Shown here: positions 12,823 to 19,780 of the stretch, piece by piece
Numbering within the stretch: position 1 is the stretch's first letter
Layout of the letters: each line of letters starts with the position of its first letter
Source: a bacterium
GTDB lineage: Bacteria > Patescibacteriota > Andersenbacteria > UBA10190
Length of the DNA stretch: 64,000 bases
Direction of reading: 5' to 3'
NCBI GenBank assembly: GCA_030698495.1
Contig: JAUYKA010000008.1
Location: 78,895 to 142,894, forward strand
The notes under the pieces: generated by a model
The model's database searches: none
What the model saw: only the letters and a program-made list of their open reading frames with translations
Told to the model about the DNA's origin: nothing
Program-made: the position numbers and the translations under genes

Positions 12823-15453
12823 ATGAATTTGGCAAAAATACAAGCACTGTCATTAGGCACCAAGGCGGTAACAACAGCACTCGGCATTATCCAAAGCGTA
12901 ATAGTGGTGCGGATATTGTCGCCGGCAGAATACGGTTTAGTTGGCTTGGTTATGTCGGTTGGCGGAGTGATAGGAGTAACGCAGCATTTGGGAATTGTGG
13001 ACGGAGCAATTAGAGAAATCGCCGTGTTAAAAAATAAGCGGGAAGCGGCAGCGGTGTTTTGGGTGTCGCACCTTGTACGTCAAGCGGTAACGATTCCTTT
13101 ATCAATCGGATTGATATTGCTGGCGGGGTTTGTAGCTGGCTCTATTTATCATCGGCCGGAAATTGCTTTGCTGATCCAGATATATGCCGCCGTATTGATA
13201 CTGCAGGGTTTACAGGACGTGATGGGCGCGACGCTGACGGGGTTAAAGCGTTTTGTATCGTTATATGTAGTGCAAATTGTAACGGCTGCGATTAATGTCG
13301 CGGTATTCGGCTATGCCACGTGGCGTTTTGGAACGGTTGGTTTTTTCTGGGCGATAGTGATAACGACAACGATAATGATTATTTTACTGACAATCATAGT
13401 CGCACGCAGCTTGAGAGGAGAGTTACGCTGGCCAGGGATAGTGCAAATAAACAAATATTCGCGACGGGTAATGCGGGTCGGAGCATATATGTATTTGGCC
13501 AGAATATTCTTTGTTATTTGGCAGCGTTTGCCGTTGCTGCTTTTAGGGGGAGTCCTGACGGCTGACAGTTTAGGATATTTGAACGTATCACTGACATTCG
13601 GGTCGAAACTGACTATTATTGCGATGGCATTATCGGAAGTTAACTTGTCGTGGATGAGTTCACTGTACGCTCAGCGGCAAAACGAATTTAGGCGCGTAGT
13701 TACGCGAAATATGCACCGCGTATTGCTACTGATGATGTTGTTAACACTGGTGTTGTTATACTTTGCTCCGGAAATTCTACAGTATGTTATCGGGGCCGAG
13801 TATTTGCCGGCACGACAAATCATATTAATCGTCACGGCCGCTTTTTTCCTGTACGCGTTGACGGATATAGGCACCAGCAGTGTCTTTGTGTCGGCGGATG
13901 AACCGCGCCTGCGGGCGATTATTTATGGGGCCATGACGACCGTAACGGCGGTGACGGTGGGATGGATTTTATGGCAGCGACCAGACGCATTTTGGGCATC
14001 GGGCGGAGTTTTAGGTGGTGCGGTGGTTGCTTATCTGATAACTGTTATCTTCACAAAAAAACATTTTGGCATCGCTTTGGTAACGGGGCAGTTGGGATTA
14101 TTGCTGGCAGCGTTGGGTTTGAGCGTGGGGTGGCTGCTGACGGAGCCGTTATTATTAGTGCGAACAGCCGTGTTTATTTTACTAACAGCATATGTAATTT
14201 ATGAAGCTAACCGCAGTAATTTGTTGCCAGGTTTTTTGAAAGTAAACAGACGCCAACAAGACGAGACCGGTGTTAAAATTATTTGTTTTGCCGGGGCGGT
14301 ATATAATCAGTTTTCCTGGACTAACCGACAGCAAATTATGACACGTTTAGCGCAGAAGTACCCGGTTTTTTACGTGGAGCCCCGGGTGTGGGTTCTGCGA
14401 TATGTCATCAGAAACTGGCGAAAACCACTGGTAATACTTGGTTTTTTCCAGCGCGTACTGGCCTATAAAAAAATTAACGATAATTTCTACGTAAAGGCAC
14501 AGTGGAATTTGATTCCGGGATCCAGAGAATTACGCTGGGTGGGACAGTTAAACTATTGGCTTAATAAGTTTTCCGTACTAGCTAAAGCCAAGTGGCTTGG
14601 TTTTAGGTCCGGTAAGCAAGTGATGTGGATATATGATACGGAAGCGGCGGAGTATGTGTCGTCTTTTAAAAAGGCACTGGTAGTCTATGATTGCGTTGAT
14701 GACCACGCGGCGCAGGCGGGGCCGGATCGTAATGAAGCGCGCGTAAAAGAGGAGGAAGCAATGATTTTAAAGAGAGCTGATTTAGTAACGGTAACCTCCC
14801 AAAAATTATTTCAAGAAAAGCGACGGTATAACGCTAATACGCACTTGGTTCTAAACGCCGGGGATACAAAACTATACGCTCAAGCAGAGCAAGACAAGAA
14901 GAAGGTTCCGAGCCTGGAAAGAATAGCGCACCCGATTATCGGTTCGGTGGGAGCACTGGACTCCTATAAATTGGATTTGAACTTGATTCGCAGCGCGGCC
15001 GAATTGCGTCCCGAGTGGCAGTTCGTTTTTGTGGGTGAGCCGATTGTCGACGGGAACAGGGCGCCGATAGTCGAGTTGGCCAAGAGACCGAATGTTCATT
15101 TGCTGGGAGGCGTTGACAGAAAAGACGTGCCGCGGTATGTCTCTTATTTTGACGTATGCGCCATTCCTTATCAGTCCAGCAGCTATAATAACGCCAGTTT
15201 TCCGCTAAAGTTCTGGGAATTTATGGCAACGGGCAAGCCGGTGGTTGTAACTGGCCTGCCGGAGTTAAAAAGATATGCCGATTTAATTGATTACGCGATA
15301 AGTGCCAATGATTTTATTGAGCTGATTGCCAAGAGTTTGGATAGCGATAATAGTCTCGGCAGGCAACGCCTGCAACTGGCGGAGAAACATTCGTGGGAGG
15401 CACGAGTTGCCGAGCTCGACATGTTGTTGCAAGATGTTGTTAGTCGCAAATAA
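12823..15453 (+). CDS. fusion protein: N-terminal Wzx-like MOP flippase (about 470 aa, >=12 TM) + C-terminal GT4-like glycosyltransferase (about 400 aa)
   Basis: Single uninterrupted 876-aa ORF; N-part EYGLVGLVMSVGGVIGVTQHLGIVDGAIREIA (Wzx signature region); C-part ...VYDCVDDH..., PLKFWEFMATGKPVV (GT-B E-x7-E-like region). Confidence 0.6.
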   Translation: MNLAKIQALSLGTKAVTTALGIIQSVIVVRILSPAEYGLVGLVMSVGGVIGVTQHLGIVDGAIREIAVLKNKREAAAVFWVSHLVRQAVTIPLSIGLILLAGFVAGSIYHRPEIALLIQIYAAVLILQGLQDVMGATLTGLKRFVSLYVVQIVTAAINVAVFGYATWRFGTVGFFWAIVITTTIMIILLTIIVARSLRGELRWPGIVQINKYSRRVMRVGAYMYLARIFFVIWQRLPLLLLGGVLTADSLGYLNVSLTFGSKLTIIAMALSEVNLSWMSSLYAQRQNEFRRVVTRNMHRVLLLMMLLTLVLLYFAPEILQYVIGAEYLPARQIILIVTAAFFLYALTDIGTSSVFVSADEPRLRAIIYGAMTTVTAVTVGWILWQRPDAFWASGGVLGGAVVAYLITVIFTKKHFGIALVTGQLGLLLAALGLSVGWLLTEPLLLVRTAVFILLTAYVIYEANRSNLLPGFLKVNRRQQDETGVKIICFAGAVYNQFSWTNRQQIMTRLAQKYPVFYVEPRVWVLRYVIRNWRKPLVILGFFQRVLAYKKINDNFYVKAQWNLIPGSRELRWVGQLNYWLNKFSVLAKAKWLGFRSGKQVMWIYDTEAAEYVSSFKKALVVYDCVDDHAAQAGPDRNEARVKEEEAMILKRADLVTVTSQKLFQEKRRYNANTHLVLNAGDTKLYAQAEQDKKKVPSLERIAHPIIGSVGALDSYKLDLNLIRSAAELRPEWQFVFVGEPIVDGNRAPIVELAKRPNVHLLGGVDRKDVPRYVSYFDVCAIPYQSSSYNNASFPLKFWEFMATGKPVVVTGLPELKRYADLIDYAISANDFIELIAKSLDSDNSLGRQRLQLAEKHSWEARVAELDMLLQDVVSRK

Positions 15454-17461: not shown

Positions 17462-17570
17462 AATTGTCTTGTTGACTAGATAATTTATAAAGTTATACGC
17501 TGTTTGGGTGTTGTTTGGGGTTGTTTTTTTGACAATTTACATGTGTTCCCCAGTTCAAGAAGGAGCTGAT

Positions 17571-18479
17571 ATGGGTACAACGGGAGTGAATACAGCAGAT
17601 AACACTGTTGATCAGTTGGTTTTTGAGTCAGGTTCAGTTGGGGACGTGGCCGTCCATAACCTATTAATGGGCGGTCCGGGAGGCATACCTTTGTATCAGG
17701 GCACTCTGCCGTTGACGCTGTATCTGAAGCAGTTGGCGTCGCTATATGCGGGACAGGAAGAATTCAATACTGGCCTGGTGCCGTGTGGGATGAATGTTCG
17801 GGCAACGTATCAACGTTACGGAATGACTGTTTTTCTGGTTGAAGTTGCCCCCAGTACCAGAACGCTCAAGTGGATAAGGGATGATTCCCCTGCGCCGTAC
17901 GGTAATGAAGCAACTTACTGTGATGCTTGTATTTCTTTGCCGTACCAATATTTCTTTGTGACGATTGATAATATGACGATTGATAACTCGCCGAGGCTGA
18001 CTAGCCATAACAGTGTTTACTTTGCTAATCAGCCTATCACCAGTTTGGATGAGCCGTTGGGGGAGTGTCATTTTCACAACTGTTCCGTGAACGCCTATAG
18101 TTTGCATTGTTGGATTTGCACTCAGTGGTTATCCGGAGATATGGGGCTAGGCAAAAACCCTGCACCTATGCAGTTGGTGGCTGCGTTCATTGAGTGGTTC
18201 TACGCTTCTGGCTTCAATCGCAGCTCTGATTTTCACGAAGGAACCAGTTTCTGGAGCCGGAACAGACAGGAGCTGGGCGATAAGCGTTTGGAGAATATTG
18301 CCGCCTGGAAAAGGGCGTCATCTAGAAATCCTGGGTTTGTGCTGCGGGTGAAGTGGCGTCCTAGCTTAACGGCAAGGGAAGTACTTGAGGAGCTGACCAG
18401 AATACCGGACCGCCGCCCGTCGGGATTACTTGATTTGGTTAATATTTACCGCGCAGCGACGTCTAGGCGGGGAGGATAG
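17571..18479 (+). CDS. uncharacterised Cys/His-rich protein; possible UBC-like (E2-like) fold; ends in ...RRGG
   Basis: Start chosen at ATG preceded by AAGGAG (track ORF starts 17508). Segment YFFVTIDN...SHNSVYFAN...ECHFHNCSVNAYSLHCWICTQWLS...PMQLVAAFIEWF resembles the UBC HPN-loop/catalytic-Cys/helix arrangement; first gene of operon with E1-like gene. Confidence 0.3.
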   Translation: MGTTGVNTADNTVDQLVFESGSVGDVAVHNLLMGGPGGIPLYQGTLPLTLYLKQLASLYAGQEEFNTGLVPCGMNVRATYQRYGMTVFLVEVAPSTRTLKWIRDDSPAPYGNEATYCDACISLPYQYFFVTIDNMTIDNSPRLTSHNSVYFANQPITSLDEPLGECHFHNCSVNAYSLHCWICTQWLSGDMGLGKNPAPMQLVAAFIEWFYASGFNRSSDFHEGTSFWSRNRQELGDKRLENIAAWKRASSRNPGFVLRVKWRPSLTAREVLEELTRIPDRRPSGLLDLVNIYRAATSRRGG

Positions 18480-18540
18480 GAACGTTGTTTATTCAGGTTA
18501 GTGGTTGTGTCATCCACTATTAACAGTTGGAGGTAAGCTG

Positions 18541-19353
18541 ATGTTTCAGGAAAGAAACGACGACTGGCTACAGGGGGTGTTGCCGGCGGAAGCGCCGCTC
18601 GTTGGCGTTGGTTTGGGTGGAATTTGCGAAGGTTGGTTGCCTAACGTATTGCTGTACATGCAGGCGGGTGTTTTGCCGCTAAAACGTGTCATCCTTGTTG
18701 ATGGCAAGAAGTTTTCTGCCCATAATCATGGCCGCCAGAACTTTCGGAATGAGGCTAATAAGGCCGAGGAGAGAAAAGTGATGTGGGGCGCTATGTACCC
18801 CACTCTGCCGATATATGCGGTTGGCCAGTTTGTGGATGAGCACAACATTGCGCAGTTTATTCCCGAGGGCACAGTGGTGTTGCTGTCTCCAGACAATCAT
18901 CCGACACGAGCATTGTTCGCCAGGCATGTCAGCACGCTGAATAACGCTCTGTTGATTTGCGGCGGTAACGATGGTATTAATAAGGAAGGAGGGGAGGATG
19001 GTACCCAGGGTTGGGCAGCGATTTACTGCCGAAGGGCAGGAATGAACGTAACTGCACCACTAACGACGTATCATCCGGAAATCGCGGAAGCGTCTGAAAA
19101 AATGCCGTCAGTAATGAGCTGTATGGAATTGGCGCAAGCCGGACAGCCACAGCTGCTGGCAACAAATCTGCACGTTGGACAAATAATGGCATATCTGTTG
19201 CATCGTTATCTGACCATGCCTTTAGGGCAAGCGTTGGAAGTGGTGGAGCAGAGATGCAATATTGCCACAGGGGAAGTCGTTCGGTTTGGTATCCGCGAGC
19301 GTTTCGCGGATACGGTGTTTTGTCTGGGTCACGAGAAAGGAGAACCATCATGA
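18541..19353 (+). CDS. E1-like ThiF/MoeB-family adenylyltransferase (non-canonical, no CxxC zinc motifs, no rhodanese)
   Basis: Start at ATG after GGAGG. GVGLGGICEGWLPNVLLYMQAGVLPLKRVILVDGKKFSAHNHGRQNF matches the E1 nucleotide-binding loop and the D-x8-N-x2-RQ adenylation motif; LSPDNHPTRALFARHVSTLNNALLICGG matches the downstream E1 block. Confidence 0.6.
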   Translation: MFQERNDDWLQGVLPAEAPLVGVGLGGICEGWLPNVLLYMQAGVLPLKRVILVDGKKFSAHNHGRQNFRNEANKAEERKVMWGAMYPTLPIYAVGQFVDEHNIAQFIPEGTVVLLSPDNHPTRALFARHVSTLNNALLICGGNDGINKEGGEDGTQGWAAIYCRRAGMNVTAPLTTYHPEIAEASEKMPSVMSCMELAQAGQPQLLATNLHVGQIMAYLLHRYLTMPLGQALEVVEQRCNIATGEVVRFGIRERFADTVFCLGHEKGEPS

Positions 19354-19688
19354 CCAAGACACTGGCAAGCGGTGCGGTGCTGTTGAGAACGCGGCGCATC
19401 GAACGTGTGCGCCCGGGCGAAGACCACACACTCGTCGTGAAGCACGGCGGATCGAGTGCCTGCCTGCGCTTCAACGAGGCGGTCTCCGTTACGGACCTGG
19501 CCAGCTACTGCACGGGACAGCTCGGCTGGTCAGTGGAGGGCATGGCCTTCGTGGTTGACGGTCAGCGCTACGAAGCGAGCCAGGCAGACGGGATCAGGGT
19601 GGATGCCAGTACCAACAAGGTTGAGTTGGGACATCCGGTGGTGCCGAGCAACCTCGAGTTCGTGCGCAAGGTCGGCGCCAAGGGGTAG
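19350..19688 (+). CDS. small protein (112 aa), GC3-rich foreign codon usage, C-terminal Gly; candidate beta-grasp/ubiquitin-like partner of the E1-like protein
   Basis: ATGA overlap with E1-like gene; about 63% GC versus about 50% surroundings; pattern ...FVVDGQRY...DGIRVDASTNKVELGHPVV loosely ThiS/MoaD-like; ends ...VGAKG. Confidence 0.35.
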   Translation: MTKTLASGAVLLRTRRIERVRPGEDHTLVVKHGGSSACLRFNEAVSVTDLASYCTGQLGWSVEGMAFVVDGQRYEASQADGIRVDASTNKVELGHPVVPSNLEFVRKVGAKG

Positions 19689-19735
19689 TAAGCTCTGCCC
19701 TGCCGTTCTTTACAGGCTTGCAAGGCAAGCAAATT

Positions 19736-19770
19736 AACCGTTGGACACCCGTTCCAACGGTTTTTCTTTT
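19736..19770 (+). terminator. rho-independent terminator of the 17.5-19.7 kb operon
   Basis: AACCGTTGGA-cacccgt-TCCAACGGTT stem-loop followed by TTTTTCTTTT. Confidence 0.7.
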
Positions 19771-19780
19771 GTATAAGATT

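What the first reader, a model, noticed from the sequence alone, without database searches (positions are those of the whole stretch)
17571..19776. Self-contained operon: Cys/His-rich possible E2-like protein + non-canonical E1-like adenylyltransferase + small Gly-terminated protein
Three co-directional genes have their own promoter region, RBS-like GGAG/GGAGG sites, an ATGA overlap and a clean intrinsic terminator. They sit between the glycan loci. The middle protein has the E1/ThiF nucleotide-binding loop and the D-x8-N-x2-RQ adenylation motif, but no CxxC zinc site and no rhodanese domain. It is therefore unlikely to be a housekeeping ThiF/MoeB. The first protein contains an HFHN-x7-LHCWICTQW...P-x-QLVAAFIEWF stretch. 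This resembles the UBC-fold HPN loop, catalytic Cys and following helix, and the protein ends in RRGG. The third protein is 112 aa, ThiS/MoaD-like in its distal pattern, and ends in Gly. E1-like/E2-like/Ubl gene triads are the hallmark of bacterial ubiquitin-like conjugation modules. Known examples are CBASS Cap2-type and Bil/Bub-type antiphage systems. This trio lacks a JAB peptidase and the proteins are not obviously members of the known families. If the fold assignments hold, this would be an undescribed minimal Ubl-conjugation (possibly defence) system in a reduced-genome bacterium.
Basis: partly seen in the sequence, partly recalled or inferred. Interest (0 to 1): 0.8.

Follow-up and report, generated by a model that had tools for sequence, protein, structure and literature searches.

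The report
Ubiquitin-like tagging cassette missing its peptidase
A candidate-phylum (Andersenbacteria) bacterium carries a three-gene set that most likely attaches a small ubiquitin-like protein to other proteins, but its proposed "E2" belongs to a large undescribed protein family that does not look like any known E2, and this copy has lost the peptidase gene that every sampled close relative keeps.

Summary
The three co-directional genes are real: A (17571-18479), C (18541-19353) and D (19350-19688), with RBSs, an ATGA overlap and a terminator.

- **C** is a minimal ThiF/MoeB-type E1 with every adenylation residue and an invariant Cys194.
- **D** is a probable beta-grasp Ubl. Its profile hits only SUMO/Smt3, weakly, and it ends in a conserved Gly.

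A belongs to a large uncurated family: 1035 clusters at E<=1e-3. Asn170 is invariant and Cys183 is 99% conserved. About a quarter of members carry an N-terminal Ubl fused to A.

All 10 close relatives with context have a fourth gene, a JAB peptidase, between A and C. The window alone lacks it. This is therefore a JAB-deleted copy of a four-gene family found in Patescibacteria, not a minimal JAB-less system.

Distant relatives place Ubl-A-JAB-E1 (the Bil gene order) inside a conserved ~10-gene cluster with an AAA+ ATPase.

Best reading: a Ubl-conjugation cassette with A as a non-canonical Cys carrier/ligase. The biological role is unknown. It is a new variant of a known kind.

The parts
17462..17570 (+). 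Upstream intergenic region with an RBS-like AAGGAG at 17560-17565; the promoter is presumed, not identified
   Evidence: Sequence read. No convincing sigma-70 site was found here. The region is divergent from the ybjQ-like gene on the minus strand.
17571..18479 (+). Gene A, 302 aa. It belongs to a large uncurated family that occupies the 'E2 position'. Asn170 (18078-18080) is invariant and Cys183 (18117-18119, in WICTQ) is 99% conserved. The Patescibacteria subfamily adds Cys166, Cys171 and Cys180. This copy ends in RRGG, which is not conserved.
   Evidence: Model. No fold or profile match to E2 or to anything else. No Pfam, NCBIfam or PADLOC match.
18480..18540 (+). 61-bp A-C spacer with GGAGG at 18529-18533. 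In every close relative with context, a ~230-280 aa JAB peptidase gene lies at this position.
   Evidence: tblastn of eight JAB proteins against the window gave nothing. The only HxHx7Sx2[DE] motif in the window lies in a Mur-ligase-like ORF.
18541..19353 (+). Gene C, 270 aa. A single-domain E1-like (ThiF/MoeB-type) adenylyltransferase. Invariant residues: G24xG26G27 (18610-18621), D54, R65, K74 and Cys194 (19120-19122); D118 is conserved in at least 90% of sequences. No CxxC and no rhodanese domain.
   Evidence: Pfam ThiF E=2.9e-4, 20.5 bits, below the gathering score of 28.1. Weak NCBIfam MoeB/ThiF hits. The family profile hits ThiF 1zud at E=1.2e-5, then Uba4, TcdA, SAE2 and MoeB. Invariant columns.
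19350..19688 (+). Gene D, 112 aa. A probable beta-grasp ubiquitin-like protein ending in ...VGAKG, with Gly112 at 19683-19685. ATGA overlap with C; RBS AAGGAG at 19337-19342. GC3 is 0.81.
19736..19770 (+). Intrinsic terminator: 10-bp stem, 7-nt loop, then TTTTCTTTT
   Evidence: sequence.

Best explanation
The locus is a peptidase-less copy of a four-gene ubiquitin-like protein conjugation cassette (A - JAB - E1 - Ubl) found sporadically in Patescibacteria.

**Proposed mechanism**
1. The E1-like protein C binds ATP and adenylates the exposed C-terminal Gly112 of the small protein D. (Inferred from intact adenylation residues and the conserved terminal Gly.)
2. The activated D is taken over as a thioester by the invariant Cys194 of C, which probably sits in the crossover loop. 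(Inferred.)
3. D is passed to the near-invariant Cys183 of protein A, with the invariant Asn170 assisting. (Inferred.)
4. A acts as a combined carrier and ligase and attaches D to target proteins. Functionally it is an E2 analogue, but it is not detectably a UBC-fold protein.

In relatives the JAB peptidase trims Ubl precursors and Ubl-A fusions and presumably removes conjugates. D here already ends in Gly, so the window's system can still conjugate but cannot reverse the tag through its own JAB.

The biological role is not established. It could be defence, stress response or protein turnover.
For: **C is an E1**
- It falls in the E1 superfamily and keeps all adenylation residues and an invariant Cys.

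**D is a Ubl**
- One orthologue carries a single extra residue after the Gly (SKGL). L008's Ubl has a 17-residue tail after GEKG. Both imply peptidase maturation at that Gly.

**The genes belong together**
- A, JAB, C and D are strictly syntenic in 10 loci whose flanks differ.
- The JAB proteins have HSHx7Sx2D, and two reach the Pfam Prok-JAB gathering score.

**A sits where an E2 would**
- About 26% (39 of 150) of full-length A-family members carry an N-terminal beta-grasp-like domain ending in GEKG, fused directly to A. This parallels the Ubl-E2 fusion BubAB, which its JAB cleaves (PMC11601596).
- In distant relatives the order is Ubl-A-JAB-E1, the same as BilA-B-C-D (PMC10557695).
- In 150 members Asn170 is 100% and Cys183 is 99% conserved. 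No His is conserved, which argues against a Cys-His peptidase.

**The window copy looks intact**
- All three window ORFs are full length and keep every family-invariant residue.
Against: - No biochemical evidence exists for any member of this family.
- A shows no significant structural or profile similarity to E2 or to any other solved protein. Its carrier role rests only on gene context and on one conserved Cys in a low-confidence loop (pLDDT below 50 at residues 170-188).
- Archaeal SAMP and Thermus TtuB systems conjugate without any E2, so A need not be a carrier.
- Loss of the JAB gene and the anomalous composition of D may mean the window's copy is remodelled or decaying.
- No link to known defence genes, phages or plasmids was found.
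Confidence: 0.55

Rival explanations
1. E2-independent tagging, as in archaeal SAMP/UbaA or Thermus TtuB/TtuC. C alone activates and conjugates D. A is not a carrier but the main substrate, a target adaptor or an effector whose activity is switched by D attachment.
For: - A has no detectable E2 fold or E2 profile similarity.
- E1 + Ubl + JAMM systems without an E2 are established (PMC4443979, PMC4895103).
- A is large (about 280 aa) and has extra N- and C-terminal domains.
- A few A proteins, including the window's, end in GG.
Against: - A single Cys (99%) and a single Asn (100%) are the most conserved residues across 150 divergent members. That is what one expects of a catalytic site rather than a substrate.
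- Recurrent Ubl-A fusions and the Bil-like gene order place A where E2s sit in characterised systems.
- The GG end occurs in only about 4% of members.
Confidence: 0.2
2. A sulfur-carrier pathway of the ThiS/MoaD/CysO/QbsE type. C adenylates D, D becomes a thiocarboxylate, and Cys183 of A relays persulfide sulfur or uses the thiocarboxylate to make a thiolated metabolite or RNA. In relatives the JAB only matures or recycles the carrier.
For: - The closest sequence relatives of C are ThiF, MoeB, Uba4 and TcdA.
- JAB peptidases do accompany some sulfur carriers, namely CysO/Mec and QbsE/QbsD (established knowledge; Iyer et al. 2006, PMC1779556).
- A has one essential-looking Cys and no E2 fold.
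Against: - No cysteine desulfurase, rhodanese, ThiG/ThiH, MoaE, CysM or other biosynthetic gene appears in any of the roughly 14 loci examined.
- C lacks the rhodanese domain and the CxxC site.
- The D profile matches SUMO and not ThiS or MoaD.
- Distant relatives associate with an AAA+ ATPase carrying a proteasomal-ATPase OB domain, which suggests a protein-directed function.
Confidence: 0.1
3. In this genome the cassette is a non-functional or decaying remnant. Deletion of the JAB gene disabled the system, and the three remaining ORFs persist only transiently.
For: - The window is the only one of 11 loci without the JAB gene.
- Gene D is an 8-sd GC3 outlier, which suggests recent remodelling.
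Against: - All three ORFs are intact, keep every invariant residue, retain RBSs, the ATGA overlap and the terminator.
- D ends in a free Gly, so it needs no maturation.
- A near-identical D (99%) occurs in an independent assembly.
Confidence: 0.1

Closest known systems
Bil (BilABCD, Type I/II) antiphage Ubl-conjugation operons (PMC10557695; Hor et al. 2024, as cited there)
   Same: - The same four roles: a Ubl with a conserved Gly, a Cys protein in the E2 position, a JAB peptidase and an E1.
- Distant relatives of the window's cassette have the identical gene order Ubl-A-JAB-E1.
- There is no E3 gene, and the E2-position protein is presumed to choose the targets.
   Different: - BilD is a multidomain E1 (inactive adenylation domain + active adenylation domain + Cys domain). 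C is a single 250-270 aa ThiF-like domain.
- BilB is a recognisable UBC-fold E2. A is not.
- There were no PADLOC hits.
- The window's gene order is A-C-D and the JAB is missing.
Bub (6E/DUF6527) operons, Type I (PMC11601596)
   Same: - A Ubl fused N-terminally to the E2-position protein and released by a JAB at a conserved Gly. About a quarter of A-family members have such a fusion.
- A compact E1.
- A sporadic distribution.
   Different: - Bub E1 and E2 lack catalytic Cys and work through Tyr and Ser oxyesters. Here Cys194 (C) and Cys183 (A) are invariant or nearly so.
- Bub has the DUF6527 serine protease BubE and a JAB-E1 fusion. None was seen in these loci, and none of the three cassette proteins or seven flanking proteins scanned against Pfam matched DUF6527.
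- BubB is a UBC-like domain of about 130 aa. A is about 280 aa with no UBC match.
ThiF/ThiS and MoeB/MoaD sulfur-carrier pairs
   Same: - These are the closest sequence relatives of C.
- A single-domain E1 sits next to a small protein ending in Gly.
   Different: - C has no CxxC zinc site and no rhodanese domain.
- No thiamine or molybdopterin genes lie nearby.
- The partner genes are always A and a JAB.
- C scores far below the equivalog cut-offs: 18-19 bits against 152-376.
Iyer-Burroughs-Aravind operon type 6d / PRTRC-like cassettes (PMC1779556)
   Same: A separate JAB with an N-terminal extra domain, a separate E1, a small Ubl with a C-terminal Gly, and a separate Cys-containing protein.
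   Different: - Type 6d has an additional alpha-helical protein, and its E2-like protein gives profile hits to E2s and has a conserved downstream His. A has neither.
- No NCBIfam or Pfam Prok-E2 model matches any of 51 A-family members.
- The three window proteins match no NCBIfam model other than weak MoeB/ThiF hits for C.
Archaeal SAMP/UbaA/HvJAMM1 and Thermus TtuB/TtuC
   Same: A minimal E1 + Ubl (+ JAMM) set that conjugates proteins in prokaryotes.
   Different: Those systems have no fourth conserved Cys protein, and their Ubls double as sulfur carriers. Here A is strictly co-inherited with the other genes.

Membership tests
E1 / ThiF-MoeB adenylyltransferase superfamily (gene C) | Rossmann-type nucleotide loop GxGxxG plus the conserved Asp, Arg, Lys and Asp-Asn adenylation residues | tested here: met
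   G24xG26G27, D54, R65 and K74 are invariant and D118/N119 are conserved in at least 90% of 19 homologues. They align to the ThiF motifs in the profile alignment.
E1 / ThiF-MoeB adenylyltransferase superfamily (gene C) | Significant match to the family model (Pfam PF00899 gathering score) | tested here: inconclusive
   The window protein scores 20.5 bits against a cut-off of 28.1 (E=2.9e-4). The family profile hits ThiF 1zud at E=1.2e-5. The distant orthologue L008_C scores 48.7 bits.
Housekeeping ThiF/MoeB (sulfur-carrier E1) | CxxC zinc site and/or rhodanese domain; neighbouring thiamine or molybdopterin genes; equivalog-level score | tested here: not met
   C has no CxxC and no rhodanese domain. 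It scores 18-19 bits against cut-offs of 152-376. No such neighbours appear in any locus.
UBC / E2 superfamily (gene A) | UBC fold: N-terminal helix, four-strand meander, active-site loop, C-terminal helices | tested here: not met
UBC / E2 superfamily (gene A) | Sequence-profile similarity to E2 families, including the Pfam Prok-E2 families | tested here: not met
Profile-vs-PDB found nothing. 51 family members scanned against Pfam gave no E2 family.
UBC / E2 superfamily (gene A) | Conserved catalytic Cys preceded by an HPN-type Asn | tested here: inconclusive
   Cys183 is 99% and Asn170 is 100% conserved in 150 members. The His and Pro of HPN are absent, and the Asn-Cys spacing is 13-16 rather than 8.
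Ubiquitin-like beta-grasp modifiers (gene D) | Beta-grasp fold | tested here: inconclusive
Ubiquitin-like beta-grasp modifiers (gene D) | Conserved C-terminal Gly, exposed or followed by a short removable tail | tested here: met
   K111 and G112 are invariant in 10 orthologues. L011_D has one extra residue after the Gly. L008's Ubl has a 17-residue tail after GEKG.
Bil (BilABCD) | Multidomain E1 (IAD-AAD-CYS), UBC-fold E2 with Cys plus an adjacent His, JAB, Ubl (PMC10557695, PMC11601596) | tested here: not met
   C is a single domain of 270 aa. A is not UBC-like and has no conserved His. The JAB is absent from the window. There were no PADLOC hits.
Bub (6E/DUF6527) | DUF6527 serine protease; E1 and E2 without a catalytic Cys; JAB-E1 or E2-E1 fusions (PMC11601596) | tested here: not met
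   No Pfam DUF6527 hit among the three cassette proteins, the seven flanking proteins or the relatives' proteins that were scanned. Cys is invariant or near-invariant in both C and A. The genes are separate.
Type II CBASS (Cap2/Cap3) | CD-NTase plus an E2-E1 fusion (Cap2) plus a JAB (Cap3) plus an effector | tested here: not met
   No PADLOC hit. The flanks are glycan genes. The E1 is not fused to anything.
PRTRC / operon type 6d | Matches to the PRTRC protein models or Prok-E2; an extra alpha-helical protein; a conserved downstream His in the E2 | tested here: not met
   NCBIfam gave only weak MoeB/ThiF matches for C and nothing for A or D. Scans of 51 A-family members found no PRTRC or Prok-E2 model. 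No His is conserved. The JAB family itself was scanned against Pfam only.
Antiphage defence system (generic) | Demonstrated protection, or enrichment in defence islands | not testable with these tools
   The only indirect signs are a sporadic distribution and variable flanks. No known defence genes lie next to it. No copies were found in the phage or plasmid collections.

The most novel reading that the evidence does not exclude
Protein A founds a new, non-UBC class of ubiquitin-like-protein carrier/ligase enzymes, an 'E2 analogue' that arose independently. The class would be widespread in uncultured bacteria (at least 1000 sequence clusters). In its full form it works with two E1s, two Ubls, JAB peptidases and a proteasomal-type AAA+ unfoldase, making a bacterial Ubl-dependent protein unfolding/degradation or defence pathway distinct from pupylation, Bil, Bub and CBASS. 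The Patescibacteria cassette would be its minimal core.
Probability: 0.22. Interest if true: 0.85.

Novelty: new variant of a known kind. Interest (0 to 1): 0.6.

Why it matters
- **A possible new E2 analogue.** Bacterial E1/E2/JAB/Ubl operons are the prokaryotic roots of ubiquitination, and several are antiphage systems. Here the E2 position is filled by a large uncurated protein family with one near-invariant Cys and no detectable UBC fold. If that Cys carries the Ubl, ubiquitin-like transfer chemistry has been invented on a second scaffold.
- **Reach into Patescibacteria.** It would extend Ubl conjugation to ultra-small episymbiotic bacteria, whose regulatory and defence repertoires are poorly known.
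- **A natural experiment.** The JAB-less copy in the window shows what happens to such a system without deconjugation.
- **A hint at function.** Relatives associate with AAA+ unfoldase-like genes and with PrkA operons, which points to a link with protein turnover or stress that could be tested.

Tried and rejected
**Family and sequence searches**
- Pfam, NCBIfam, PADLOC and PHROGs scans of the three proteins gave only weak ThiF/MoeB hits for C.
- Single-sequence PDB searches gave nothing meaningful.

**Structure of A**
- The afdb50 library was unavailable.

**Structure of D**

**Looking for the JAB in the window**
- tblastn of eight JAB proteins was negative.
- A motif scan found one HxHx7Sx2[DE] in a Mur-ligase-like ORF, rejected as coincidence.

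**Other rejected ideas**
- An apparent JAB loss in L010 was a gene-calling artefact. The JAB ORF is intact at L010:1602-2429.
- Gene A as a JAB (HFH-x7-S-x2-C resembles HxHx7Sx2D): the His residues are not conserved in homologues, and the true JAB is a separate gene.
- Gene A as a Cys-His peptidase: no conserved His.
- The hairpin at 19289-19313 as a conserved attenuator before D: it is not conserved in relatives and the fold energy is unremarkable (z -0.56).

**Distribution searches**
- The search for related loci with broad A alignments failed because no stretch was conserved enough.
- The narrower alignment found only one locus among GTDB representative genomes (a Saccharibacteria MAG, identical to L007), none in viral contigs and two in metagenome contigs.
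- tblastn of a distant A member against plasmids and phages found nothing.

**Literature**
- Searches found no description of this family or of Ubl systems in Patescibacteria.
- The PDB entries 9egb-d that match C could not be traced to a paper.
Full report
**1. What is in the sequence**

The region holds three co-directional ORFs.
- A: 17571-18479, 302 aa.
- C: 18541-19353, 270 aa.
- D: 19350-19688, 112 aa.

Signals:
- RBS-like sites precede each gene: AAGGAG at 17560-17565, GGAGG at 18529-18533 and AAGGAG at 19337-19342.
- C and D overlap by ATGA.
- A 10-bp stem at 19736-19762 followed by TTTTCTTTT closes the unit.
- No convincing sigma-70 promoter was found in the 109-bp gap upstream of A. 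The promoter remains an assumption.

The only correction is that the E1 motif is D-x7-N-x2-RQ, not x8.

Proteins 100% identical to A and C are deposited as hypothetical proteins of a Candidatus Andersenbacteria MAG. That organism belongs to the Patescibacteria/Parcubacteria group. The deposited start of C (237 aa) cuts off the nucleotide-binding loop, and homologues support the ATG at 18541.

The flanks are glycan genes:
- a flippase-GT1 fusion;
- a GT4;
- a YbjQ-like gene on the opposite strand;
- a GT2;
- a Wzy_C protein;
- a FemAB-family gene on the opposite strand.

**2. Gene C is a minimal E1**

- Pfam ThiF and NCBIfam MoeB/ThiF models match weakly, below their cut-offs.
- A profile of 19 homologues hits ThiF (1zud) at E=1.2e-5. 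It also hits Uba4, TcdA, SAE2 and MoeB over the Rossmann half.
- G24xG26G27, D54, R65 and K74 are invariant, D118-N119 is conserved in at least 90% of sequences, and all align to the ThiF adenylation residues. Cys194 is also invariant.
- Cys194 lies 76 residues after D118, the region where ThiF and MoeB have their crossover-loop Cys. That mapping is an inference.
- C has no CxxC and no rhodanese domain.

**3. Gene D is probably a beta-grasp modifier**

- Single-sequence searches found nothing.
- A profile of six orthologues, and then of ten, hits only yeast SUMO (Smt3) in the whole PDB, at E=1.1e-3 and 4e-3.
- hhalign against Smt3 gives 87.6% probability over beta1-beta4.
It still showed beta-beta-alpha-beta-beta order.
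- K111 and G112 are invariant and terminal in 9 of 10 orthologues.
- One orthologue (L011) has a single extra Leu after the Gly.

Each line is weak on its own, but they all point the same way.

**4. Gene A is not detectably an E2**

A model built from 18 homologues has pLDDT 73 and pTM 0.73. The beta-rich core (residues 71-165) and the C-terminal helices are confident. The loop at 170-188 is not.

Negative results:
- Foldseek against PDB: nothing below E 0.1.
- Family profiles against PDB: nothing.
- hhalign against four canonical E2s: probability below 2%.
- Pfam, NCBIfam and PADLOC scans of 51 family members: no family.

The test has moderate power, because the active-site loop is poorly modelled.

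A is nevertheless an important family:
- An exhaustive HMM search found 1035 cluster representatives at E<=1e-3, and 185 at E<=1e-30.
- In 150 full-length members, Asn170 and Pro124 are 100% conserved and Cys183 (WIC[TV]Q) is 99% conserved. No His is conserved.
- The Patescibacteria subfamily adds Cys166, Cys171 and Cys180, giving C-x4-C-x8-C-x2-C. This could be a metal or redox site.
- The RRGG end is not conserved. GG ends occur in 6 of 149 other members.

**5. Context in relatives**

Ten independent close relatives have the order A - B - C - D:
- L001/2/3, L004, L005, L006, L007 (= L014), L010, L011/12, L013, L015 and L016.
- L007 is an uncultured Saccharibacteria MAG.

B is a 225-282 aa protein with a C-terminal JAB/MPN+ motif (HSHx7Sx2D). 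Two B proteins exceed the Pfam Prok-JAB gathering score.

The window has only a 61-bp spacer where B should be. No B homologue was found anywhere in the 64 kb. The window therefore carries a lineage-specific JAB deletion, not a JAB-less system type.

Flanking genes differ among loci, which indicates a self-contained and probably mobile cassette. No copy was found in viral contigs, phage genomes or plasmids.

More distant A-family members (L008, L009, L017, L018) sit in a conserved ~10-gene cluster. The gene order is:
1. an E1;
2. two unknown genes;
3. a small Ubl ending in Gly;
4. one unknown gene;
5. an AAA ATPase with a weak proteasomal-ATPase OB match;
6. Ubl;
7. A;
8. JAB;
9. a second E1.

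The last four genes follow the BilABCD order.

In 39 of 150 members, a ~70-aa ThiS/ubiquitin-like domain ending in GEKG is fused directly to the N-terminus of A. This is like the Ubl-E2 fusion BubAB, which its JAB cleaves after a conserved Gly (PMC11601596).

**6. Mechanism**

What the data show:
- an intact adenylation site in C;
- a conserved terminal Gly in D;
- strict co-inheritance of A, JAB, C and D;
- one near-invariant Cys and one invariant Asn in A;
- Ubl-A fusions.

What is inferred:
1. C adenylates D-Gly112 and forms a thioester at Cys194.
2. D moves to A-Cys183.
3. A ligates D to targets, acting as E2 and E3 in one, as proposed for BilB.
4. In relatives, the JAB matures precursors and reverses conjugation.

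D here already ends in Gly, so the JAB-less copy could still conjugate, but irreversibly.

Rivals:
- A SAMP-like, E2-independent system with A as substrate or adaptor.
- A sulfur-carrier pathway. The absence of any sulfur or biosynthetic partner gene in about 14 loci, and the SUMO-like profile of D, argue against it.
- Decay of this particular copy.

**7. Comparison with known systems**

It works most like Bil and Bub operons, but it meets the membership criteria of none.
- The E1 is single-domain, unlike BilD.
- Catalytic-type Cys residues are conserved, unlike Bub.
- There is no DUF6527, no CD-NTase and no PRTRC model match.
- The E2-position protein matches no E2 family.

Iyer et al. (PMC1779556) listed operon types 6a-6e, and this cassette fits none of them. 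My literature searches found no description of it. The library is incomplete, so prior description cannot be excluded.

**8. Verdict**

The E1 and Ubl assignments, the conjugation-type context and the 'not a known family' claim all hold.
- The UBC fold is not supported.
- 'Minimal JAB-less system' is a misreading of a deletion derivative.
- A defence role is untested.
- Novelty: a new variant of a known kind, with a real chance that A is a new class of Ubl carrier.
- Interest: 0.6.

**Unexplained**

Gene D has GC3 of 0.81. The 56 other ORFs in the window average 0.49 with sd 0.04 and a maximum of 0.57.
- The anomaly is confined exactly to the ORF.
- D is also GC3-richer than its neighbours in 6 of 7 related loci.

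Noticed in passing
window 19350-19688: Gene D is an extreme compositional outlier: GC 0.64 and GC3 0.81. The 56 other ORFs of the window have mean GC3 0.49, sd 0.04 and maximum 0.57. The anomaly starts and stops at the ORF boundaries, and the ATGA overlap with C is preserved. D is also GC3-richer than A, B and C in 6 of 7 related loci. Candidate explanations are gene replacement or a family-wide constraint; neither is established.
   Followed up: partly
L008:1-8473, L009:1-9019, L017:1268-9794, L018:3-7464: Distant A-family members lie in a conserved ~10-gene cluster. The order is ThiF-like E1, two unknown genes, a small Ubl ending in Gly (weak YukD hit), a ~340-380 aa unknown, an AAA ATPase with a weak proteasomal-ATPase OB match, then Ubl-A-JAB-E1. 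All ten families are syntenic across four divergent loci.
   Followed up: partly
L001:7475-12335, L006:6249-10147, L010:3688-8130, L011:1514-3001: A PrkA / DUF444 (YeaH) / SpoVR operon lies directly downstream of the A-JAB-E1-Ubl cassette, on the same strand, in four loci whose upstream flanks differ. It is absent from the window. This could be shared ancestry or a functional link.
   Followed up: partly
window 18541-18639: The deposited annotation of gene C (237 aa, locus tag U1C49_03055) starts at Met34 and omits the GxGG nucleotide-binding loop. Homologues show that the true start is the ATG at 18541.
   Followed up: yes
window 18066-18119 (A residues 166-183): The Patescibacteria subfamily of A has a Cys cluster, C166-x4-C171-x8-C180-x2-C183, around the family-wide Cys183. 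In the wider family only Cys183 is conserved. The cluster may be a subfamily-specific metal or redox site.
   Followed up: partly
window 18468-18476; L004:5269-5274: Protein A ends in RRGG in the window and in QKGG in L004. Six of 149 other family members also end in GG. This is more than chance would give, but it is not a conserved feature.
   Followed up: partly
L011:906-1256: The D orthologue here ends in SKGL, one residue beyond the conserved Gly. This implies C-terminal trimming, presumably by the JAB, in that lineage.
   Followed up: no
L010:1602-2429: An intact JAB gene was missed by the gene caller because a 358-aa ORF call for the E1 ran over it. The apparent second JAB-less locus is an annotation artefact.
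   Followed up: yes
window 19289-19313: A perfect 10-11 bp hairpin followed by a T-rich stretch lies inside the 3' end of gene C, 37 nt before the start of D. It is not conserved in relatives and is not energetically exceptional (z -0.56).
   Followed up: yes
window 12823-15453: An 876-aa ORF fuses a polysaccharide flippase (Polysacc_synt_3/Polysacc_synt) to a C-terminal GT1-family glycosyltransferase domain.
   Followed up: no
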